IMG/VR virus record: IMGVR_UViG_3300027976_000020
Span: 15,570 to 79,569 of that record
Reading direction: 5' to 3' (one strand)
DNA length: 64,000 nt
Source: a virus
Below, one piece after another: positions 23,914-45,213 of this stretch. The notes below the pieces were generated by a model that ran no database searches, had not been told where the DNA came from, and saw nothing but the letters and a program-made list of their open reading frames with translations. Numbering within the stretch: the stretch's first letter is position 1; each line of letters opens with the position of its first letter. Both the position numbers and the translations under genes were made by a program.

Positions 23914-25995
23914 ATGATCCAAATTCGTAATCTTACTGTAAAAAACTTCATGAGCGTGGGCAATGCTACCCAGGCTATTGACTTTGACCGCAACGACCTG
24001 ACATTGGTACTAGGCGAAAATCTTGACATGGGTGGCGACGGAAGTCGCAACGGCACAGGCAAGACCACAATTATCAACGCACTTAGCTATGCGCTGTACG
24101 GGACAGCACTCAGCAATATCCGCAAGGATAACTTGGTCAACAAAACCAATGCTAAAAACATGATGGTCAGTTTGGACTTTGGAGTAGGTGGTAAAGAATA
24201 CAGAATTGAACGCGGTCGCAAACCCAATGTACTACGGTTCTACATAAACAATCAAGAACAAGAAGCAACAGACAACGCACAAGGTGACAGTCGCGAGACT
24301 CAGCAGGCCATTGAACGCACACTCGGACTCAGTCACGATATGTTCAAGCATATTTTGGCACTGAACACTTACACTGAACCGTTTTTGAGTTTGAGAGCCA
24401 ACGACCAAAGAACAATCATTGAGCAACTGCTGGGCATTACCCTGCTGAGTGAACGTGCTGATCGTATCAAAGAACTCAATCGCGAAACCAAGGACGGCAT
24501 TTCACAAGAAGAATTCCGTATTCGCGCTGTACAAGAAGCCAACAAACGAATTGAAGAACAAATTGACAGTTTGAAACGCAGACTAGCACTTTGGCAAAAA
24601 AAGCACAACGATGATCTGGCTTACTTGGTAAAGAAGCACGACCATCTTAAAGAAATTGATATTGATGTTGAATTGCAAGCACACAAAGATCTAGCAATTT
24701 GGAACACAGCAAAACAGCAACAAGATGCATATACTGCATTGCTTGCCAGGCAGACCACTTGGAAACAAAAGCAACTAAACGATGTTACTGATCTCAATGA
24801 TAGTTATGTCAAGCTCGGTTATATTGACATTGTTGCTGAATTACAGTCACATGTTGATGTAGCTGCATATGTTCAAAAGTCAAAAGACATTACTGAGCTG
24901 AAGTCACTGATTGCCAGATGCGAATCAGACGAAAAAAAGGAAACCAAAGTTGTTGCCAAGATCAAGGCAGAAATTGCAGATCTAACGGACCACAAGTGTT
25001 ATGCATGTGGTCAAGATTTTCACGACGCCAATTATGCTGCAGTAATGACTGCTAAAAATGCAGCACTACAAGAAGCGGCGTTGCAAGTACTTGCAACAAA
25101 CGGTCAATGGATAGAGCACACAGAGTCACTTGCTGTGCTAGGGCCATTGGGCAAATTGCCCACTACCCATTATAAAACACAAACTGAAGCAATTCGGCAT
25201 TCAGGCGATTTAAAAAATATCTATCAGCAGATCAACGCTCGGACAAATGAAGTAGATCCGTATGCTGATCAATTGATGGAACACTCTGGTGTGGTGCTGA
25301 GCACACAGCCAAAAACTCATTACGACACAGAAACAGAGGCAATTGATCATCGTAGTCAGTGCAACAACTATCTATACCAAATTGAAACTAAAAACAACGA
25401 TACTGATCCATATACTGAGCAGATTGAAGAAATGCAAGCACAAGCATTGCAGGAAGTCAGCTACGACACAGTTAACGAACTTACCCGACTACAAGAGCAT
25501 CAAGAGTTTTTGTTAAAGTTATTAACCAGCAAAGACAGTTTTATTCGTAAGAAGATCATTGAACAAAACCTAAGTTACTTAAATACAAGACTTACATATT
25601 ATCTTGATCGTATTGGGTTGCCGCACACTGTTGTGTTTCAAAATGATCTGAGCGTAAGTATCGAAGAATTAGGACGTGAATTAGACTTTGACAATTTGAG
25701 TCGTGGTGAACGCAATAGACTTATACTCAGTATGAGTTGGGCGTTCCGTGATGTGTACGAAAGTTTATACCAACCAATCAACGTGTTGTTTATTGACGAA
25801 ATGATTGATTCTGGCATGGACACACAAGGTGTCGAAAACAGTTTGGCATTGCTCAAGCACATGAGCCGAGAGCGTCACAAGAGCATCTGGCTAGTGAGTC
25901 ACAGAGACGAACTAGCAGGCCGTGTTGAGAACATTCTTAAAGTGGTCAAAGAAAACGGCTTTACCAGCTACAATACGTATGTCGAATTACCATAA
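23914..25995 (+). CDS. Recombination ATPase subunit (gp46/Rad50/SbcC-like)
   Basis: KNFMSVGN, Walker A NGTGKTT, CYAC zinc hook, LSRGE signature, Walker B LFIDE, VSH. Confidence 0.95.
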   Translation: MIQIRNLTVKNFMSVGNATQAIDFDRNDLTLVLGENLDMGGDGSRNGTGKTTIINALSYALYGTALSNIRKDNLVNKTNAKNMMVSLDFGVGGKEYRIERGRKPNVLRFYINNQEQEATDNAQGDSRETQQAIERTLGLSHDMFKHILALNTYTEPFLSLRANDQRTIIEQLLGITLLSERADRIKELNRETKDGISQEEFRIRAVQEANKRIEEQIDSLKRRLALWQKKHNDDLAYLVKKHDHLKEIDIDVELQAHKDLAIWNTAKQQQDAYTALLARQTTWKQKQLNDVTDLNDSYVKLGYIDIVAELQSHVDVAAYVQKSKDITELKSLIARCESDEKKETKVVAKIKAEIADLTDHKCYACGQDFHDANYAAVMTAKNAALQEAALQVLATNGQWIEHTESLAVLGPLGKLPTTHYKTQTEAIRHSGDLKNIYQQINARTNEVDPYADQLMEHSGVVLSTQPKTHYDTETEAIDHRSQCNNYLYQIETKNNDTDPYTEQIEEMQAQALQEVSYDTVNELTRLQEHQEFLLKLLTSKDSFIRKKIIEQNLSYLNTRLTYYLDRIGLPHTVVFQNDLSVSIEELGRELDFDNLSRGERNRLILSMSWAFRDVYESLYQPINVLFIDEMIDSGMDTQGVENSLALLKHMSRERHKSIWLVSHRDELAGRVENILKVVKENGFTSYNTYVELP

Positions 25996-25999
25996 CAAC

Positions 26000-27502
26000 A
26001 TGTCCGATGCAATAATTTTATCTGTTCCGCGTATGGCTGCAGTGCGGCCGGCTGCAGGTCCTGCTATCATTAAACAAATTTACAACCAACACGGCGTATC
26101 AAGCAAATGCCTGGATATCAATCTTGATTACTGGACAAGATTTCAACAAGAGTGCGATCTTGAAATTTGGAACAATATTGACGAGTTTTTGTTTATAAAA
26201 AATGCCAAGCTGAGCGCTGCTGCAGAACAAAAATTTAATGAGTTTATAGATCATTGGGTTACAATAATAAATCAATACAATCCTCGGCAATTATTAATCA
26301 GCGTGTTCAGCTGGCAAGCACAACAGTTTACTGAAAAATTCTTAGAAAAATTTAGATTGCAAAGCACCTGTGAAGTTATCATTGGCGGCCAAGGACTTAT
26401 TAGAGAAGAAAACGGAAGTTTTTCTCTTGTGCCTTCATTTGCTCATTATCTCAAAGATAAAAATCTAATTGACCATTGGATAAGAGGCGAGGCAGAATCT
26501 ACTATTCCTGAAATCATACGTGGGAATTATTCAGCAGCAGGAATTGACACTAATTTTCTAGCAGAAAGAAGCGACATCAAATCACATACAGCAATGGACT
26601 TTAGTGATTTTGATATTACTTCTTATAAGAATGGCACCGAGCACGGCGTATTACCCATCGAAAGTTCCAGAGGGTGTATTAGAAGTTGCATGTTTTGTGA
26701 TATTCCTACCATGCAAGGAGGATTTCGGGTCAAACCAGGATTACAACTTGCAAACGAAATGCTACAGTATTATGAAAAATACGGTGTTCGTACCTTCTTT
26801 TTTCATGATGCACTGTGCAACGGCAGTATGAAAGACTTTCGCATATTCAATCAGACATTAATAAATTATTACGAAGAAAAAGGATTGCCGGATCGTACAC
26901 TAAGTTATAGCAGTCATGCAATTGTACGAACACAGGCTGCTATGGCTCCAAAAGATTTTGAACTTATGGGCAGAGCGGGTGCCGAAACAATGGTGCTAGG
27001 AATCGAAAGCGGCAGTGATGCTGTACTTGCTAGTATGCGCAAAGGGTTTACACAAGAAGATTTAAACTACAATATTCAAGAATACAGTAAAAATAGTATT
27101 CAGGTATATTTTTTAATTATAACTGGATGGCCAACCGAAACTGAAAAAGATCATCAAGACACTGTGGATATGCTAACTCGCTATCAAAAGTATGTAGCGG
27201 ACGGAACTATCATTGGAGTTAATTTAGGTACCACACTCACTATCGAGCAAGGAACACCGTTATATGATAATCCATTGTCAATCAATGTTGTAGGAATTAA
27301 CAATCGTCCTCCGCAAGGAACCGAATGGGTATGCACTACCAACACTGAGCTAACTTATAAACGCAGAATCATGCGCAGAATAGAGATTCAAGAACACTGT
27401 CACAATCTTGGGTACACTTTCTGGAAGGGCGACGACCAACTCAAAATTATGATGGACAAATATCAAGAAAGACTATCCATGATACAGGGGATGATACATT
27501 GA
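26000..27502 (+). CDS. Radical SAM protein with N-terminal cobalamin-binding-like domain (class B-like)
   Basis: SRGCIRSCMFC CxxxCxxC motif, IIGG, FFFHDALCNG, GIESGS, GWPTET; start probably ATG 26000 (alternative 25979). Confidence 0.85.
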   Translation: MSDAIILSVPRMAAVRPAAGPAIIKQIYNQHGVSSKCLDINLDYWTRFQQECDLEIWNNIDEFLFIKNAKLSAAAEQKFNEFIDHWVTIINQYNPRQLLISVFSWQAQQFTEKFLEKFRLQSTCEVIIGGQGLIREENGSFSLVPSFAHYLKDKNLIDHWIRGEAESTIPEIIRGNYSAAGIDTNFLAERSDIKSHTAMDFSDFDITSYKNGTEHGVLPIESSRGCIRSCMFCDIPTMQGGFRVKPGLQLANEMLQYYEKYGVRTFFFHDALCNGSMKDFRIFNQTLINYYEEKGLPDRTLSYSSHAIVRTQAAMAPKDFELMGRAGAETMVLGIESGSDAVLASMRKGFTQEDLNYNIQEYSKNSIQVYFLIITGWPTETEKDHQDTVDMLTRYQKYVADGTIIGVNLGTTLTIEQGTPLYDNPLSINVVGINNRPPQGTEWVCTTNTELTYKRRIMRRIEIQEHCHNLGYTFWKGDDQLKIMMDKYQERLSMIQGMIH

Positions 27503-28014
27503 AAATCAACATTGCATTGAACGTTGAAAAACGACTAGGAGATCCGCTGATTAAAATAACAATCGATGACTACATGTTGTTGTACGAAGGAGCAGCTCGA
27601 GAACAATTTGAGTTTGATGTAATGCTAGAAGACGGCCATCATGAAATTAAAATCACACACTATGGTAAAACTATACATCACCATCAACTCGACGACAACG
27701 GAAAAATAGTAATTGACCGTCACGTGGAGATTTCAGGTATCACACTTGACGAAGTTGTGCTCAAAGACGAGCTGTGGTCTGGCAGATTTTTTCCAGTTTA
27801 TTTGCACAAAGCTGATCATGAGCCGTATTTTATATGTCCTAATTTATATCTTGGACACAACGGAACTTGGATCATGGAGTTTAGTACACCTGCTATTCAA
27901 TGGTTAATCAATCGCCGAAAGCCCGGGCTGGATTTAAATAATACCATTTTCAAATCCGGGCATGATGTTTTACTACAAATGAAAAGTAAATTTACGGATT
28001 TCCCTGATGTTTAA
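27499..28014 (+). CDS. Hypothetical protein in radical SAM cluster
   Basis: 171-aa ORF overlapping both neighbours. Confidence 0.65.
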   Translation: MKINIALNVEKRLGDPLIKITIDDYMLLYEGAAREQFEFDVMLEDGHHEIKITHYGKTIHHHQLDDNGKIVIDRHVEISGITLDEVVLKDELWSGRFFPVYLHKADHEPYFICPNLYLGHNGTWIMEFSTPAIQWLINRRKPGLDLNNTIFKSGHDVLLQMKSKFTDFPDV

Positions 28015-29122
28015 TTACAACATAATCGACGAGTACCAAATTGAGATCACCACATACTGCAATGCAGCGTGTCCCCAGTGTCCGAGAAATCTCAACGGGT
28101 ACGGTATCAATCCGCACATGCCGTTGACCCACTTGTCTAGAATTGCAATTGATACCACGTTTGATATTGCATTGTGTACTAGATTACGGCAAATATTTTT
28201 TTGCGGAAGTTACGGAGATCCTATTATGCATCCGGAGTTTCTTGATATATTAAGAGACTTTAGACGTAAGAATCCCACATTGTGGCTATACATACACACA
28301 AACGGCGGTGTACATAATACAGGCTACTGGTCCGAAATTGCTAAAATAATGAACGGCTATGGGCAAATTGATTTTGGCATCGATGGACTCGAAGACACTT
28401 TACATTTGTACAGAAAGAATGTAAAATACAGTAAGGTTATAGAGAACGCAAAAGCATTTATTGACGCTGGCGGGCGGGCACAATGGAATTTTATTGTGTT
28501 CAAACATAATCAGCATCAAGTTGAAGAAGTTAAACAACTAGGAAAAGAATTAAAGTTTTTTAATGTTTTGATTAGAAAAACAGGAAGATTCTTTAATCAT
28601 GCAACAGTAGAAGAAATGAAGACTTGGCCAGTCAAAGACGAATATGTGTTAGAACCGCCAAGTTTGCCAGAGTATCAAAATCAAAGCATGTTGTTTTTGC
28701 CTGATCTGAAAAAAGAATATAATGATATCAAAGAATATTTTGATACAACAGAAATAAAATGTGATGCGTTGCTTGGTAAAAAAGTTGCCATCAATGCAGA
28801 AGGATTAGTGCTACCATGTAATTTTCTCAATCATAATTTATACGATCGACGATTTTACGAAGACGAAGTATTACCCGGTGCTAATTCATTAAGCACTGTT
28901 AACGGTAAGAATCAAACACGCGAGTTTTTAGAATCGTATAATTTAGACAGTTTTGACATTAATAAAAACAGTTTAGAAAATATTTTTATCAATCCCATGT
29001 GGAATGATTTAGTTGCCAGTTGGAATAAAACATTATCGCAAGGCAGATTATTTGAGTGCGCAATGACATGCGGTTCAAAATTAACAAAAGTTTGGGATCA
29101 AGGAGGATCTATAAAATTATGA
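28007..29122 (+). CDS. Radical SAM protein with C-terminal SPASM/twitch-like cysteines
   Basis: CNAACPQC motif, CGSYGDP, HTNGG, GIDG; C-terminal C...INAEG.VLPC...CAMTCG. Confidence 0.88.
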   Translation: MFNYNIIDEYQIEITTYCNAACPQCPRNLNGYGINPHMPLTHLSRIAIDTTFDIALCTRLRQIFFCGSYGDPIMHPEFLDILRDFRRKNPTLWLYIHTNGGVHNTGYWSEIAKIMNGYGQIDFGIDGLEDTLHLYRKNVKYSKVIENAKAFIDAGGRAQWNFIVFKHNQHQVEEVKQLGKELKFFNVLIRKTGRFFNHATVEEMKTWPVKDEYVLEPPSLPEYQNQSMLFLPDLKKEYNDIKEYFDTTEIKCDALLGKKVAINAEGLVLPCNFLNHNLYDRRFYEDEVLPGANSLSTVNGKNQTREFLESYNLDSFDINKNSLENIFINPMWNDLVASWNKTLSQGRLFECAMTCGSKLTKVWDQGGSIKL

Positions 29123-29697
29123 AATATATGATAACAGGCGGCAATAGAGGACTAGGCGAAGCACTGTGTGCTCATTACAATGGTGACAGTTATAGTCGCA
29201 ACAGTGGTTACGACATTACCAAAGACCGAGAAAAATTAGTAGAGGCAAGTTTACAATACGATGTGTTTGTTAACAATGCGTTTGACGGACCTTTTCAAGA
29301 ATCGTGGGCCGACTTTGCACAAGTTAAATTATTGTTTGATGTTGCTACAGCATGGAAAAATGCCAACAAAATTGGCCACATCATCAACATTGGTAGCTCT
29401 GGAAGTGAATCTATTGTGGCACCGGCCCCTGCATGGGAAACTTACCGTGTCAGCAAAGCAGCCTTAAAACATCATAGTTTACAATGGACACAAGCGTTCA
29501 AAACAAACCAAGCACCGTTTAGAACAAGTCTAATCACATTGGATCGATTAGACACTGTACTAAGCCGTAGTCGTCCAAACTGGACAGGCAACGGTATTGA
29601 TTTGTCCGATGTGAGCAATATGATCGACACTTGCATTAGCGTAAAAAACAACACCTGCATAGGCGAAATTACTGCCTGGGTAAACTTTGACGCATAA
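29119..29697 (+). CDS. Short-chain dehydrogenase/reductase
   Basis: ITGGNRGLG, VFVNNA, IINIGS, YRVSK catalytic YxxxK; ATGA overlap with the rSAM stop. Confidence 0.88.
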   Translation: MKYMITGGNRGLGEALCAHYNGDSYSRNSGYDITKDREKLVEASLQYDVFVNNAFDGPFQESWADFAQVKLLFDVATAWKNANKIGHIINIGSSGSESIVAPAPAWETYRVSKAALKHHSLQWTQAFKTNQAPFRTSLITLDRLDTVLSRSRPNWTGNGIDLSDVSNMIDTCISVKNNTCIGEITAWVNFDA

Positions 29698-29772: not shown

Positions 29773-30207
29773 ATGACATCATGGTACTATCAAAACATCT
29801 CAGTTGAGACATTACCCGAAGAATGTGTTGGATTTGTATACTTAATCACAAATAATCTCTCCGGACGCAAGTACATAGGCAAAAAATTAGCAAAGTTCTC
29901 AAAAACATCAGTAAAAGTAGTAAAACAAAAGAACGGCATCAAAAAGAAAAAGCGCATACGCACAAAAATCGACAGTGATTGGCGTGAGTACTACGGATCA
30001 AGTATTGATCTAGCCGCAGACATCTTAACTTTAGGCACCGAAAACTTCTCCAGAGAAATACTTTATTATTGCGCATCCAAGGCAGCATGTTCATACATTG
30101 AAGCCAGAGAACAGTTCAATAGAAAAGTATTGGAATCAGACGATTATTACAATGGACAAATCAGTGTACGTGTACACGGTAGTCACATCAAAAACAAAAC
30201 ACTTTAA
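29773..30207 (+). CDS. Stand-alone GIY-YIG nuclease-family protein
   Basis: GFVY.ITN....KYIG, YYGS, F.REIL, conserved Glu (YIE) and YYN; 144 aa with a Lys-rich insertion and no C-terminal DNA-binding repeats. Confidence 0.8.
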   Translation: MTSWYYQNISVETLPEECVGFVYLITNNLSGRKYIGKKLAKFSKTSVKVVKQKNGIKKKKRIRTKIDSDWREYYGSSIDLAADILTLGTENFSREILYYCASKAACSYIEAREQFNRKVLESDDYYNGQISVRVHGSHIKNKTL

Positions 30208-30209
30208 AT

Positions 30210-30622
30210 TCGATTACGACTCTGTGTTGGGTGCAATGGCCCAACCCCATTGAAGAACGGTGCAATACCCGGTCCGGACTTGGGTGTCAAAGGACAATGC
30301 TAACTTAAGGCAACAAATGGTTTGGGCTATGTGAAAAAGATACACCCCATGCTTATAGGACTTCGATTTATTATGGGGTCACTAGGGTTCCGTTGATACG
30401 TGAAGCTAGAGTAAGGGGTACCGGTCAACCGCCTCTGTGTAAGCAATTACAATCTCTTGATAATAAAGGCTGCTACACTCAGATAATGCTGTAAAAACCT
30501 TTTCACCGTGCATACGGTGAATTGTGACTGCGTAATCTAGATAATACTAGATACATTGATTGTTCTAACAAATAAAAAAAATTGATGAACGAAGTGAAAT
30601 CAATAGACTTGCTAGCAAGTCT
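30210..30622 (+). ncRNA. Candidate structured non-coding RNA/element
   Basis: About 410 nt with no ORF of 60 aa or more, in an otherwise tightly packed genome; several hairpins (30226-30245, 30438-30451 with GCAA loop, 30502-30521) and long-range complements; strand and identity inferred. Confidence 0.45.
30605..30622. terminator. Perfect 18-bp palindrome at a convergent gene junction (possible terminator or protein-binding site)
   Basis: AGACTTGCTAGCAAGTCT directly abuts the stop codon of the minus-strand nucleosidase. Confidence 0.45.
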
Positions 30623-31159
30623 TTAACGTATAGATAACTCTTTTAATTTGTTTATGTAATGCTTTTCACCTAAGGAAACTGTGTGTTTCCAATCTACATT
30701 TGCATTGCTGTCGGCTAAATCTGAGATATATTTAAAACAAGTAAATTCTATTTTTGAATATTGGCATGCTTTGGCTATAGCATATGCTTCCATGTCAACC
30801 AAGTCTGCGGGTATTTCCAATACAGGATTGGATACAAAATTATCTCCTGTGCTGCACGTGATACCATCAATGCCTATGGCTATATCTGATTCAAATGGCG
30901 TTTGTCCTGCTTTAAGTCCAAACGCTTTACAATCCATGTCTCGCTGAACAAAGCGTGTGCACTGATACAATCCTGTGCCCACAGTGATACCACCTGCTGT
31001 ACCAAAGTTTATAATGTGCTTTGGTTTGTATTGTTCAATAAGACGGGCAGTACACAAGGCCGCATTGACCTTGCCTACTCCTGTAAAAAATACATTATCT
31101 CGGTGTTGTAACTCCAGCGGTGCTTCGTTGCTGATAGCAATCAAGATAATGGTATCCAT
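30623..31159 (-). CDS. mtnN: 5'-methylthioadenosine/S-adenosylhomocysteine nucleosidase (Pfs/MtnN-like)
   Basis: GVGKVNAA, IINFGTAGG, STGDNFV, VDMEAYAIA, KYISD motifs; start ATG 31159 (TAATG overlap). Confidence 0.85.
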   Translation of the reverse strand: MDTIILIAISNEAPLELQHRDNVFFTGVGKVNAALCTARLIEQYKPKHIINFGTAGGITVGTGLYQCTRFVQRDMDCKAFGLKAGQTPFESDIAIGIDGITCSTGDNFVSNPVLEIPADLVDMEAYAIAKACQYSKIEFTCFKYISDLADSNANVDWKHTVSLGEKHYINKLKELSIR

Positions 31160-31497
31160 TAGAACTGATCCGGCCAATCACGGAACAGTGCATGTTGAAT
31201 AGTGTTGCAATCAACAAACTGGTTAAATGATTTGTGTTTCACTTCGAGCTCGCCTTCTAGCGGCGCAACTCGTTTAAATGCACTGTCCATTTGTGCCATG
31301 CCAGTGAACTCCATAAGTATCATCCACTCAGGCATGTCTGCAATGCTGCGGAATCCCAGTTTACAACGAGTAATTCTGTAACTTTCCATTTTGCCTTCAC
31401 CAATTAAATGATCAAAAAAACTTTTCATTCCGTTGACCCATTCAAGGTCTGTAAGGTCGCCTTCTTTGTTTGCCCAAATTGTATATACGTCTGCCAT
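31159..31497 (-). CDS. Hypothetical protein (possible alpha/beta barrel-like)
   Basis: 112-aa ORF tightly coupled within the minus-strand operon. Confidence 0.7.
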   Translation of the reverse strand: MADVYTIWANKEGDLTDLEWVNGMKSFFDHLIGEGKMESYRITRCKLGFRSIADMPEWMILMEFTGMAQMDSAFKRVAPLEGELEVKHKSFNQFVDCNTIQHALFRDWPDQF

Positions 31498-41940: not shown

Positions 41941-42666
41941 ATGAAACTAATACACGAAATAAAACCATACACATACTTGATCCGGTGCAAAGTAACCGGA
42001 GAAGTATATTATGGAAGCAGAACCAAGAATGTAAAACTCAAAAGAACCCCTGCAGAGGACTTGATGCTGTACTATCAAACAAGTAGTAAACTTGTTAAGA
42101 ACATGATACAACATCACGGGATAGAAAACTTTGAGTGGGAAGTACGCAGAACCTTTGACGACGTCAATACTACCGGGCTGTGGGAGAACAGAGTGTTGCG
42201 TCGTTGCCGGGTATTAGAAAATGATATCTGGTTAAATGCAAATCTAGCTAGTAAAAAAGAACTTACAAAAGCCGGTGCTAAAATAATCAGCAAAATTCAC
42301 AAGGATAAGCCTAAGTCAGAAGAACATAAAAAAAATTTAAGTACTTCTCAAAAAGGTAAACCCAAAAAATCAACAGTGTATCAAAGTGAAGACTATCGAA
42401 GAAACATGTCTAAACTAAAATCCGGCCCAGGCAATGCTATGTACGGAAAACCCTGTTCGGAAGAAAGAGCTGCAAACATCAGTGCCGCTAAAAAAGCGCA
42501 AAACTTAACAGCCTATAATAAAGATATTCCAATGACACAAGCACAAAAAGACAAAATAGCCGCTACTAAAGAAAAAAATAAAGTTATGCTAACCTGTGAA
42601 GTATGTGGCAAAACTATGCGTCAATCCAACTTCAAACAATACGGGCACGGACCCAACTGCACATGA
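41941..42666 (+). CDS. Free-standing GIY-YIG (Seg-like) homing endonuclease with NUMOD3-type repeats
   Basis: YTYLI......VYYGSR, Y.TSS, KSEEHKKNLS, GNAMYGK..SEE, C-terminal CEVC...H...C; TAAATA 5 nt upstream. Confidence 0.78.
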   Translation: MKLIHEIKPYTYLIRCKVTGEVYYGSRTKNVKLKRTPAEDLMLYYQTSSKLVKNMIQHHGIENFEWEVRRTFDDVNTTGLWENRVLRRCRVLENDIWLNANLASKKELTKAGAKIISKIHKDKPKSEEHKKNLSTSQKGKPKKSTVYQSEDYRRNMSKLKSGPGNAMYGKPCSEERAANISAAKKAQNLTAYNKDIPMTQAQKDKIAATKEKNKVMLTCEVCGKTMRQSNFKQYGHGPNCT

Positions 42667-44331: not shown

Positions 44332-44418
44332 CTTGTCAACACAATACGGTGTTTTATGCGGCACACCAGCCGCGTAGTAGCTAGAACCTACATCGGACTT
44401 CTTTAAGGAGAAAACAAC

Positions 44419-45213
44419 ATGGGACGTCCTCTAAAAATTCAAAAATACAACGTAGTCACATCAACACCAATTGATCAAGGCTATGCTCCATTTGGTGCTC
44501 CCACTTCAATGGACACAAGTACTGTTGTACTTCCACAACCAATTACACTACCGTTTCCATTCAGTGGAGTAGTCGGCGGCATTGACAGTGCAGGCGTCAG
44601 CGCTACATATCCTATTGTTTCTGTAACAGTGAATATTGTAAACAGCTTCTCTGGTGCAGCCGCAGGCGCAATTATTCGTCAGAAAGGTGCTCGTAAGTAT
44701 CTAGTGGCAACCACAACTCCTATTGATCCTGCAAACGCAGTAGTGGGTGTTGCTCTTCAAATTGCAGCGGTTGGCAACACAGACTGGCAAGCAATGGGCG
44801 CGCCATACGGTGCTGCAATTGGTACACTGTTTACCCCAACAGTGGCCTCTGCAGGTGGTTCAACTGGTACAGCATTCGAAGTTGGTCAGTGCGTGTTGGC
44901 AGCCGCTGCGATTCCAACTGCTGGCAATATGAACATTGCTATGGCAGTTGCTGACGACAGTACCAACGTTTTCATCAGCAAGTTGACCAACAAGTTTGTG
45001 CAAGACTTCAACGGTGGCGGCGCCGGCGGTGTTGCTAGTACTGGCGATGTATGGGATTACGCTGCTACAGTTGACAACATTGACTACGCAGCCAACTTCT
45101 TCACTGATTCGTCAACATTTGCCAAGTCAGGCGCAGAAGTTTCTACATGGGCCGGAACCCAGCAAAACAGCAATGGCACATTGGGCCTAGCACAAGTTGA
45201 CAGTACAACCTAA
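44419..45213 (+). CDS. Virion structural protein (hypothetical, probably abundant)
   Basis: TAAGGAG SD; MGRPLK start, IIRQKG.RKYLV motif; own promoter and terminator. Confidence 0.7.
   Translation: MGRPLKIQKYNVVTSTPIDQGYAPFGAPTSMDTSTVVLPQPITLPFPFSGVVGGIDSAGVSATYPIVSVTVNIVNSFSGAAAGAIIRQKGARKYLVATTTPIDPANAVVGVALQIAAVGNTDWQAMGAPYGAAIGTLFTPTVASAGGSTGTAFEVGQCVLAAAAIPTAGNMNIAMAVADDSTNVFISKLTNKFVQDFNGGGAGGVASTGDVWDYAATVDNIDYAANFFTDSSTFAKSGAEVSTWAGTQQNSNGTLGLAQVDSTT

What the first reader, a model, noticed from the sequence alone, without database searches (positions are those of the whole stretch)
29773..30622. Minimal GIY-YIG nuclease followed by a ~400-nt structured non-coding tract: candidate nuclease-RNA system
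Seen: a 144-aa GIY-YIG domain without the NUMOD/zinc DNA-binding tail present in the 41941 enzyme, but with a very basic insertion (KLAKFSKTSVKVVKQKNGIKKKKRIRTK). It is followed directly by the largest ORF-free gap in the window. The gap has hairpins gttggg/cccaac (30226-30245), tgtc/gaca (30285-30296), cgg-tcaa-ccg (~30422-30431), tgtaa-GCAA-ttaca (30438-30451, GNRA loop) and ttcaccgt/acggtgaa (30502-30521). It also has long-range complements actct/agagt (30219/30408), gggtgt/acaccc (30282/30342), accccat/atggggt (30344/30373) and tttattat/ataataaa (30367/30460), and repeated ggtgcaat and agataat words. I could not match it to tRNA, tmRNA, RNase P or a group I core. Known: HEARO/OMEGA RNAs partner compact HNH/RuvC nucleases. 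Inference: this could be a GIY-YIG ribonucleoprotein in which RNA supplies scaffold or specificity. An alternative is a replication origin served by a nicking enzyme.
Basis: partly seen in the sequence, partly recalled or inferred. Interest (0 to 1): 0.85.

Follow-up and report, generated by a model that had tools for sequence, protein, structure and literature searches.

The report
Large knotted twin-word phage RNA gene
The gene-free stretch behind a small nuclease gene of this uncultured giant freshwater phage encodes a real, intricately folded RNA of about 335 bases, a new variant of the little-studied Polynucleobacter-1 RNA; nothing shows that it guides the nuclease, and its job is unknown.

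Summary
Confirmed: ORF 29773-30207 is a 144-aa GIY-YIG catalytic domain, and the 415-nt gap holds a plus-strand RNA (about 30217-30549). Its 12 helices and pseudoknot are backed by covariation: 95% of cells pair, 39 of 82 pairs show double changes, and 0 of 500 shuffles reach this.

More than 110 viral contigs carry it, including complete 346-kb jumbo phages with one copy each.

The 3' 160 nt are shared with sister RNAs whose 5' part is Rfam Polynucleobacter-1 (RF01718). The window's 5' 175 nt match no Rfam family.

A 7-nt word after ACUC/AUCU occurs twice, flanking a hairpin. It is identical in both copies in 126 of 127 distinct sequences although 12 different words exist. This is unexplained.

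The nuclease link is positional only:
- 74% of loci have the gene adjacent, 14% have other genes between, and 9% lack it (some carry a PD-(D/E)XK nuclease there instead).
- Cultured relatives of the protein have no such RNA.
- No protein residue tracks the word.

Weinberg et al. (2010) already noted this gene family upstream of Polynucleobacter-1. This scan also reported the same RNA family earlier on other genomes.

Verdict: new variant of a known, uncharacterised RNA. The RNP idea is not supported.

The parts
29773..30207 (+). 144-aa stand-alone GIY-YIG catalytic domain (SegE type, phrog_447), with a basic beta-hairpin insert and no DNA-binding tail.
   Evidence: Pfam PF19835 E 1.6e-30. phrog_447 E 9e-35. 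AF2 model pLDDT 84.9. VIA Z 7.8 to the I-TevI catalytic domain 1LN0, 7.0 to PD-T4-3, 5.3 to UvrC-N and 4.9 to T4 EndoII. Conserved Y23, Y34-I35-G36 (I35 nearly invariant), R94, E110/E113 and N127.
30217..30549 (+). The whole conserved structured RNA, about 335 nt. The ends are set by where conservation starts and stops.
   Evidence: Conserved at 77-87% nt identity in related contigs. Alignments A1 and A2. Structure test. In loci with genes inserted upstream, similarity starts at ACGAC.
30217..30389 (+). 5' module. P1 30218-20/30286-88; H1 30226-31/30240-45; H2 30246-49/30281-84; H3 30254-60/30269-75; H5 30297-301/30309-13; H6 30320-31/30343-52; H7 30356-64/30375-84. No Rfam match.
   Evidence: Compensatory changes in every helix. 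No Rfam hit at E<=10. Not matched by the sister subtype's profile.
30367..30467 (+). Pseudoknot PK1. The loop of H7 (30367-30374) pairs with 30460-30467.
   Evidence: Mutual information. 5 of 8 pairs show changes on both sides, and 91% of cells pair.
30390..30549 (+). 3' module shared with Polynucleobacter-1-type RNAs. H8 30386-90/30402-06; PK2 GTTGA 30392-96 x TCAAC 30425-29; H9 30408-11/30454-57; H10 30414-23/30430-36; H11 30439-42/30447-50; then the twin-word domain.
   Evidence: The nhmmer profile of the sister subtype hits 30390-30549 at 51.5 bits. PK2 is invariant here but appears to covary in the sister subtype, read by eye from the alignment (GTCAT/ATGAC, GTCGT/ACGAC, GTTGT/ACAAC). H9, H10 and H11 covary.
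30477..30487 (+). Word copy 1: ACUC followed by the 7-nt word AGAUAAU (30481-30487).
   Evidence: Identity covariation with copy 2 in 97 of 97 sequences at two independent A/G sites. 126 of 127 sequences carry identical 7-mers, with 12 different words.
30501..30522 (+). Hairpin H12 between the two word copies.
   Evidence: Conserved with compensatory changes. It has a different sequence but the same shape in the sister subtype.
30535..30545 (+). Word copy 2: AUCU followed by the same 7-nt word AGAUAAU (30539-30545).
30605..30622 (-). Terminator-like hairpin at the end of the convergent minus-strand operon. It may also end plus-strand transcripts.
   Evidence: Consensus scan only.
30623..31177 (-). 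Convergent neighbour: a PNP_UDP_1 (Pfs-like nucleosidase) gene. It is not part of the element and is absent in most related loci.
   Evidence: Pfam. Synteny table.

Best explanation
The gap encodes a single-copy, plus-strand non-coding RNA of about 335 nt. It belongs to an uncultured lineage of roughly 346-kb aquatic jumbo phages with T4-like cores.

The RNA is modular. A 3' module of about 160 nt is shared with sister RNAs whose 5' part is the Rfam motif Polynucleobacter-1. This module holds a loop-loop pseudoknot, then two copies of one freely variable 7-nt word on either side of hairpin H12. The window's 5' module of about 175 nt is a different, uncatalogued fold, tied to the 3' module by pseudoknot PK1.

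Shown here: the RNA is real, the fold is under selection, the strand is +, the 3' module is homologous to the sister RNAs, there is one copy per genome, and the two word copies stay identical.

Inferred: it sits at the end of the rightward gp47-gp46 gene block, is probably co-transcribed with the genes before it, and acts in trans as its own gene. The rigid knotted core would display the same single-stranded word twice, so that one partner is bound twice. That partner is most likely a nucleic acid whose sequence differs between phage lineages.

The 144-aa GIY-YIG gene is a conserved neighbour and not a shown partner. It is probably a free-standing nuclease of homing-endonuclease descent. It sits beside a highly conserved RNA gene, a spot that also attracts other nuclease genes.
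For: Fold:
- RNAalifold gives 73 pairs, 26 of them compensatory.
- My model with two pseudoknots has 95.2% of cells paired, 39 of 82 pairs with double changes and 270 such cells. 0 of 500 shuffles reach this, and slid controls give at most 57 cells.
- Invariant G-U pairs fix the + strand.

Spread:
- The core 21-mer occurs in at least 120 IMG/VR stretches, 114 of them distinct.
- nhmmer finds the RNA in nearly all GIY loci that have enough downstream DNA.
- In the complete 346,856-bp genome there is one RNA and one GIY gene; the 345-kb genome has one GIY gene, and its RNA copy escaped BLAST.

Relation to Polynucleobacter-1:
- Sister loci score 82-119 bits against RF01718, above the gathering score of 37.
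- Their profile hits window 30390-30549 at 51.5 bits.

Independence from the nuclease:
- Adjacency counts are 77 adjacent, 3 with a short gap, 15 with genes between and 9 without, out of 104.
- The inserted genes are unrelated accessory genes.
- PDDEXK_15 or other nuclease genes replace it in some loci.
- L083 and L111 carry the RNA with no GIY-YIG or PD-(D/E)XK gene beside it, and no phrog_447 gene on those contigs.
- The protein family has no RNA behind it in Melnitz, BUCT-ZZ01 and P-SSM2.
- No residue tracks the word alleles (MI at most 0.47 of 1.07 bits).

Twin word: identical in 126 of 127 distinct RNAs, with 12 words. Further words occur in L111 and L129.

RNA libraries: 18 metatranscriptome runs from about 10 studies hold part of the stretch, and the four runs I laid have contigs on the RNA part. 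Contigs bridge the ORF and the RNA.
Against: The function is not shown. No partner for the word was found inside the RNA or in the flanks, where own-word versus other-word complements count 56 to 164, which is the chance ratio of 1 to 3.

Adjacency to a small nuclease gene, GIY-YIG or PDDEXK_15, holds in over 90% of loci. That could still mean a functional link and not only synteny or a homing hot spot.

The GIY-YIG gene is far more constant in presence and position than a typical selfish homing endonuclease gene.

Transcript ends and abundance are unknown. Only assembled contigs were available, and they may contain DNA carry-over.

The two word copies could also stay identical through DNA-level homogenisation between close direct repeats and not through an RNA-level requirement.
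Confidence: 0.6

Rival explanations
1. Nuclease-RNA system. The RNA binds the domain-less GIY-YIG protein, or the PDDEXK_15 protein that replaces it, and supplies scaffold or target choice, with the twin word as the specificity element.
For: The protein lacks any DNA-binding tail but carries a long basic beta-hairpin. The RNA starts about 10 nt after its stop codon. A nuclease gene lies directly upstream in most loci, and an unrelated nuclease takes the same place when the GIY-YIG gene is missing. The word is free to vary yet kept identical twice, as a specificity element might be.
Against: In 14% of loci, one or two unrelated genes separate the two. The RNA occurs with no GIY-YIG or PD-(D/E)XK gene beside it in L083 and L111. 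The protein family thrives without the RNA in cultured Kyanoviridae. No protein residue co-varies with the word. The basic hairpin is also present in the long SegE+NUMOD3 enzyme of L191, so it is not special to RNA-linked copies. No GIY-YIG enzyme is known to be RNA-guided (my own knowledge). A 7-nt word is short for a guide.
Confidence: 0.15
2. A cis-acting 3' element of the upstream mRNA. It would be a structured 3' UTR that stabilises or controls the transcript of the nuclease gene, or ends the rightward operon.
For: It has the same strand and sits directly after the stop codon. RNA-library contigs bridge the ORF and the RNA. It is always at the end of the plus-strand gene block, facing convergent genes.
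Against: About 335 nt with 12 helices, two pseudoknots and a 60-nt invariant core is far more than 3'-end protection needs. The gene in front varies: GIY-YIG, accessory enzymes, PDDEXK, MazG-like or PNP. No terminator-like U-run follows the RNA on the + strand.
Confidence: 0.08
3. A mobile ribozyme or intron-like element that travels with homing endonuclease genes. The direct repeats would be remnants or sites of its insertion or processing.
For: Four kinds of homing-type nuclease genes cluster around it: short GIY-YIG, GIY-YIG+NUMOD3, HNH+NUMOD3 and PDDEXK_15. Direct repeats flank a hairpin.
Against: There is no group I, group II or small-ribozyme hit in Rfam even at E<=10. No interrupted host gene or exons exist. 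It keeps the same genomic position in nearly all contigs and has one copy per genome. Both word copies are retained in every member.
Confidence: 0.04
4. A DNA-level element, such as a replication origin, a recombination cassette or protein-binding repeats. The apparent structure would be incidental.
For: The two word copies behave as co-varying direct repeats, which DNA-binding sites or recombination can produce. A nuclease gene lies next door.
Against: Thirty-nine base pairs keep pairing through double changes, and several invariant G-U pairs would be C-A on the other strand. The word is not a repeated genomic motif.
Confidence: 0.02

Closest known systems
Polynucleobacter-1 RNA motif (Rfam RF01718; Weinberg et al. 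2010, Genome Biol 11:R31, PMC2864571)
   Same: Sister RNAs at the same genomic place, behind orthologous GIY-YIG genes of 72-80% aa identity, match RF01718 at 82-119 bits. They share the window RNA's 3' 160 nt, including the twin word. The 2010 supplement already says most examples lie downstream of gene family GOS11034, related to PSSM2_218. I show that PSSM2_218 is the same short GIY-YIG family (37% identity, E 1e-19). Function is unknown in both.
   Different: RF01718 is a 141-nt model of the sister subtype's 5' part only. The window's 5' 175 nt do not match it (no hit at E<=10) and have a different helix order. The 3' module, the pseudoknots and the twin word are not part of the published motif, as far as the table, the supplement text and the Rfam model show.
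GOLLD, ROOL and other large ornate RNAs linked to phages (Weinberg 2010/2017; cryo-EM preprint 10.1101/2024.12.08.627333)
   Same: They are large, heavily structured, found mainly in phages or metagenomes, act as independent genes, and have no known function.
   Different: No sequence or model match. This RNA is smaller, at 335-400 nt. Multimer formation was not tested here.
HEARO / omega RNA with IscB or TnpB (OMEGA systems)
   Same: A structured RNA abuts a compact nuclease gene.
   Different: The nuclease family differs (GIY-YIG, not RuvC/HNH). There is no transposon end, no variable guide at an RNA end, no strict co-occurrence, and no Rfam HEARO hit.
Free-standing homing endonuclease genes next to conserved genes in T4-type phages, for example SegB in the T4 tRNA cluster (from my own knowledge)
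   Same: GIY-YIG genes of SegE type, plus HNH, PD-(D/E)XK and NUMOD3-bearing enzymes, are inserted beside a highly conserved RNA gene.
   Different: The short enzyme has no DNA-binding module. It is nearly fixed in presence and position across hundreds of contigs, unlike sporadic selfish genes. Homing was not tested.
I-TevI catalytic domain (PDB 1LN0/1MK0) and other GIY-YIG nucleases
   Same: The protein model's best structural matches are all GIY-YIG enzymes (Z 7.8, 7.0, 5.3 and 4.9). The motif residues are conserved.
   Different: A 27-residue basic beta-hairpin is inserted after the YIG motif. There is no linker, zinc finger or helix-turn-helix domain.

Membership tests
Polynucleobacter-1 RNA (RF01718) | Score at or above the Rfam gathering threshold (37 bits) against the RF01718 covariance model. 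| tested here: not met
   No RF01718 hit in window 30100-30750 even at E<=10, nor in the whole window at gathering score. Sister loci L051, L029, L003 and L020 score 82-119 bits.
Polynucleobacter-1 RNA (RF01718) | Homology to the RNAs that carry the motif, taken over their full length. | tested here: met
   The profile of 30 full-length sister RNAs hits window 30390-30549 at 51.5 bits. All 97 window-type RNAs are hit from profile position 222 onward.
Polynucleobacter-1 RNA (RF01718) | Location downstream of the GOS11034 / PSSM2_218 gene family, as noted by the describers. | tested here: met
   Supplement text. PSSM2_218 against the window's protein gives 37% identity and E 1e-19.
GIY-YIG nuclease superfamily (protein) | Family profile match and the GIY...YIG motif with conserved Arg, Glu and Asn. 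| tested here: met
   PF19835 E 1.6e-30 over the full profile. Y23, Y34, G36, R94, E110, E113 and N127 are invariant, and I35 nearly so (at least 90%), in 20 homologues.
GIY-YIG nuclease superfamily (protein) | GIY-YIG fold. | tested here: met
   AF2 model pLDDT 84.9. VIA Z 7.8 (rmsd 2.4, 78 aligned) to I-TevI 1LN0. The next three matches are also GIY-YIG enzymes. Foldseek probability 0.99 but E 0.12.
Modular Seg/Tev-type homing endonuclease | A catalytic domain joined to a C-terminal DNA-binding module (NUMOD, zinc finger or HTH). | tested here: not met
   144 aa with a single domain. The listed homologues match over about 133-144 residues. By contrast, the 357-aa SegE+NUMOD3 enzyme of L191 has such a module, and the 241-aa enzyme at 41941 has a long C-terminal tail (not scanned).
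RNA-guided nuclease systems (OMEGA/HEARO type) | Strict co-occurrence of nuclease and RNA, and a variable guide segment at one end of the RNA. | tested here: not met
   Co-occurrence is broken in 23% of loci. There is no variable end segment, and conservation stops at AT-rich spacer. The only variable matched element is the internal 7-nt twin word.
Group I intron | Match to the group I core model and flanking exons of an interrupted gene. | tested here: not met
   No Intron_gpI hit at E<=10. The upstream ORF ends with its own stop codon and the downstream genes are on the other strand.
tRNA / tmRNA / RNase P RNA | Detection by ARAGORN or Rfam models. | tested here: not met
T4 endonuclease II (DenA)-like host-DNA nickase | Specific similarity to EndoII beyond the shared GIY-YIG fold. 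| tested here: inconclusive
   2WSH aligns at Z 4.9, below I-TevI. There is no sequence hit to any PDB chain. The position after gp47-gp46, or after nrdB in Melnitz, is suggestive only.

The most novel reading that the evidence does not exclude
The twin word is a programmable specificity element. The knotted RNA would present one freely evolving 7-nt word twice to capture a matching nucleic acid. The small domain-less nucleases encoded just upstream (GIY-YIG, or PDDEXK_15 where it replaces it) would be its effectors. That would make this a new kind of RNA-directed nuclease in jumbo phages.
Probability: 0.07. Interest if true: 0.95.

Novelty: new variant of a known kind. Interest (0 to 1): 0.6.

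Why it matters
Large, knotted RNAs without a known job are rare, and they have repeatedly turned out to be ribozymes or new machines.

This one is a single-copy gene in complete 346-kb jumbo phage genomes and occurs in well over a hundred aquatic viral contigs. It extends a 141-nt motif catalogued in 2010 into a modular RNA of 335-400 nt with exchangeable 5' domains.

It also shows an unusual signal. One 7-nt word is displayed twice and changes in step, with 12 variants. That points to a specific partner yet to be found.

The work also identifies the gene family noted beside the motif in 2010 as a minimal GIY-YIG nuclease. This makes the nuclease-partner question directly testable at the bench.

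Tried and rejected
- blastn of the ORF plus gap against 50,697 cultured phage records gave no match.
- Rfam at gathering score and at E<=10 gave only chance rows for the gap. ARAGORN found nothing.
- Single-sequence folding is only mildly better than shuffles on either strand (z -1.9 and -1.8). It could not decide anything; covariation did.
- A decayed C-terminal domain of the nuclease is rejected. All listed homologues are about the same length, and the gap evolves by paired changes.
- RNAalifold's helix GTCA/TGAC (30286-89 with the TGAC before word copy 1) was replaced by P1 (GAC 30218-20 with GTC 30286-88). P1 covaries, and the other helix breaks in L112 and L099.
- Small hairpins that would put each word in a loop, or pairing of word copy 1 with copy 2, fold inconsistently across sequences and do not explain the identity.
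- A partner for the word inside the RNA was not found (best own-minus-other score 0.9 of 7). In about 770 kb of flanks there was no enrichment. As a repeated motif in the window it does not occur.
- Association of GIY-YIG residues with word alleles gave background levels only.
- Rolling or template-jump copying between the two words by a phage reverse transcriptase was considered. No RVT_1 gene is present in two complete genomes.
- RNA-library contigs cover both the ORF and the RNA, with a depth spike on the invariant core in one run. They cannot show ends, strand or level, and DNA carry-over is possible.
- The 21-mer hit in a Pseudarthrobacter genome (L203) has no further similarity, so it is chance.
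- Foldseek against PDB gave no match at E<=0.001.
- A literature search found no paper on the RNA beyond Weinberg 2010. The aquatic jumbo-phage paper PMC12619734 does not mention it.
- Complex prediction was not used. It cannot take RNA.
Full report
**What is there**

The window comes from a 79.6-kb viral contig. It carries T4-type genes, including a baseplate hub and radical SAM enzymes. By baseplate hub, the nearest cultured phages are jumbo phages (Phosso, Atu_ph07, PA5oct) at only 30-34% identity. Related contigs include a complete 346,856-bp genome with terminal repeats and a 345-kb genome rated 99% complete.

ORF 29773-30207 (+) encodes 144 aa. It matches Pfam SegE_GIY-YIG over the whole profile (E 1.6e-30) and PHROG 447, a family with a 148-position profile. 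The gap 30208-30622 has no credible ORF and lies between this gene and a convergent PNP_UDP_1 gene.

**The protein**

At least 596 relatives exist in IMG/VR. The 80 best share 66-86% identity and match over about 133-144 residues, so the short form is not a truncation. In 20 aligned homologues, Y23, Y34, G36, R94, E110, E113 and N127 are invariant and I35 nearly so.

An AlphaFold model (pLDDT 84.9) shows the GIY-YIG core with the basic insertion as a long beta-hairpin at residues 41-67. Its best structural matches are the I-TevI catalytic domain (Z 7.8), PD-T4-3 (7.0), UvrC-N (5.3) and T4 EndoII (4.9). Foldseek agrees on I-TevI but only at E 0.12.

More distant homologues (36-48% identity) occur in 443 cultured phage records, mostly Kyanoviridae.

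**The RNA is real**

Gap bases 6-342 are 77-87% identical in many related contigs. An nhmmer profile finds the element downstream of nearly every GIY-YIG locus that has enough DNA.

RNAalifold on 23 sequences predicts 73 pairs, 26 of them with compensatory changes. It also shows several invariant G-U pairs, which fix the RNA on the + strand.

Mutual information on 97 distinct sequences added three features:
- a pseudoknot between the H7 loop (30367-74) and 30460-67;
- a 5' closing helix, GAC 30218-20 with GTC 30286-88;
- co-variation of two direct repeats.

I tested my model of P1, H1-H3, H5-H12, PK1 and PK2 on 42 diverse sequences. The result was 95.2% of cells paired, 39 of 82 pairs with changes on both sides and 270 such cells. 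0 of 500 shuffles reached this, and slid controls gave at most 57 cells.

PK2 (GTTGA 30392-96 with TCAAC 30425-29) is invariant here. In the sister subtype it appears to covary, read by eye from the alignment.

**What it is related to**

The window's RNA matches no Rfam family even at E<=10, and no tRNA or tmRNA. Cultured phages have no similar DNA.

A sister subtype sits behind orthologous GIY-YIG genes. Its 5' part of about 141 nt matches Rfam RF01718, Polynucleobacter-1, at 82-119 bits against a gathering score of 37. A profile of 30 sister RNAs hits the window only from 30390 to 30549 (51.5 bits).

The family is therefore modular. It has a shared 3' module and at least two different 5' modules. 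The helix order of the window's 5' module differs from the RF01718 consensus.

Polynucleobacter-1 is listed in Weinberg et al. 2010 only as a candidate RNA from Burkholderiales and fresh water or estuary. The supplement says most examples lie downstream of gene family GOS11034, possibly homologous to PSSM2_218, and that none was found in a sequenced purified phage. PSSM2_218 is a 145-aa homologue of the window's nuclease (37% identity, E 1e-19). So the gene-RNA adjacency was already recorded in 2010, without the gene being recognised as GIY-YIG. No other paper in the library mentions the motif.

Earlier agents of this scan reached the same family assignment on other genomes. I tested it independently here.

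**The twin word**

In the 3' module, ACUC+AGAUAAU (30477-87) and AUCU+AGAUAAU (30535-45) flank hairpin H12.

Across 97 distinct window-type RNAs, two A/G sites in the word are identical in both copies in 97 of 97. All four haplotypes occur, and these sites show little linkage to the rest of the RNA.

Counting both subtypes, 126 of 127 RNAs carry the same 7-mer twice, and 12 different words exist. Of the 97 window-type RNAs shuffled as a control, none does. More distant members use yet other words, again matched: ACGAAAU in L111 and AUGAAG in L129.

I found no complementary partner in the RNA or in the flanks. The word is not a genomic motif, no consistent local fold explains it, and no reverse transcriptase is present that could use the repeats for template jumping. 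It remains unexplained.

The candidate explanations are two equivalent docking sites for one partner whose sequence varies between lineages, or DNA-level homogenisation of close repeats.

**Link to the nuclease**

The core 21-mer alone retrieves 114 distinct loci, of which 104 have enough upstream DNA:

| GIY-YIG gene relative to the RNA | Loci (of 104) |
|---|---|
| Directly upstream | 77 |
| 311-600 nt away | 3 |
| One or two genes between | 15 |
| Absent | 9 |

The wider order is conserved: gp47-gp46, accessory genes, GIY-YIG, the RNA, then convergent genes down to a gp26-like hub. Much of the association is therefore plain synteny.

The inserted genes are unrelated accessory ORFs or I-TevI-like enzymes. 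Where the short GIY-YIG gene is missing, the place is taken by:
- a PDDEXK_15 nuclease in L133, L146 and L159 (in L107 it lies about 1.3 kb further upstream, with another gene between);
- a 357-aa SegE+NUMOD3 enzyme in L129 and L191;
- no DNA nuclease of these kinds in L083 and L111.

An HNH+NUMOD3 gene lies downstream in L127 and L147. L083, L111 and L159 show no phrog_447 gene on the contigs available.

In Melnitz, BUCT-ZZ01 and P-SSM2 the homologous gene has no such RNA behind it. No protein residue tracks the word alleles.

The ribonucleoprotein idea therefore has no support beyond position. The persistent neighbourhood of small nucleases keeps it alive at low odds.

**Expression**

Eighteen metatranscriptome runs from about ten studies hold part of the stretch. 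In the four runs laid, contigs cover both the ORF and the RNA, and two bridge them. These are assembled contigs from RNA libraries. They show neither ends nor level, and they may include DNA.

**Verdict**

The element is a large pseudoknotted phage RNA, a new variant of the Polynucleobacter-1 family with a novel 5' module and an undescribed twin-word 3' module.

It most likely acts as its own gene. The GIY-YIG enzyme is a conserved neighbour.

The function and the meaning of the twin word are open.

Noticed in passing
window 44337-44421 (+): Rfam freshwater-2 RNA (RF02980) at 69.3 bits, full length, ending at an AUG preceded by AAGGAG. It is a known cis-regulatory candidate sitting in this phage.
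   Followed up: no
window 41941-42666 (+): A second, 241-aa GIY-YIG-like enzyme with a long basic C-terminal tail that ends in Cys/His residues. It looks like a classical free-standing homing endonuclease.
   Followed up: partly
L127/L147 (+211..+1110 from the RNA core, minus strand); L129/L191; L176/L177; L133/L146/L159/L107: The RNA's neighbourhood collects nuclease genes of four kinds in different contigs: HNH+NUMOD3, 357-aa SegE GIY-YIG+NUMOD3, I-TevI-like GIY-YIG, and PDDEXK_15. It looks like a homing hot spot.
   Followed up: partly
L201, L202 (NZ_JBBAKG010000003.1 and NZ_JBBAKG010000001.1): Two contigs of 148 and 183 kb, binned as a Haliscomenobacter MAG, each carry the GIY-YIG gene plus the RNA. 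They are either phage contigs mis-binned or a hint at the host.
   Followed up: no
L083 8971-9576 (-), about 1 kb downstream of its RNA copy: An Rv2179c-like 3'-5' exoribonuclease gene lies near an RNA copy that has no GIY-YIG or PD-(D/E)XK gene beside it.
   Followed up: no
window 30502-30521, read on the minus strand: In this window only, hairpin H12 is followed on the minus strand by AAGGTTTTTA and scores as a terminator-like site. The linker is variable in relatives, so this is probably incidental.
   Followed up: partly
window 29056-29697 and 25922-29122: The accessory block between gp46 and the nuclease gene (two radical SAM enzymes and an SDR-like protein) is present in only some related contigs. 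The RNA and nuclease sit in a plastic region where accessory genes come and go on both sides.
   Followed up: partly
PHROG 447 / GenBank annotations (e.g. PSSM2_218, YP_214449.1): This short GIY-YIG family is widely annotated as 'NAD synthetase' in phage records and in PHROGs. That looks like a propagated mis-annotation.
   Followed up: partly
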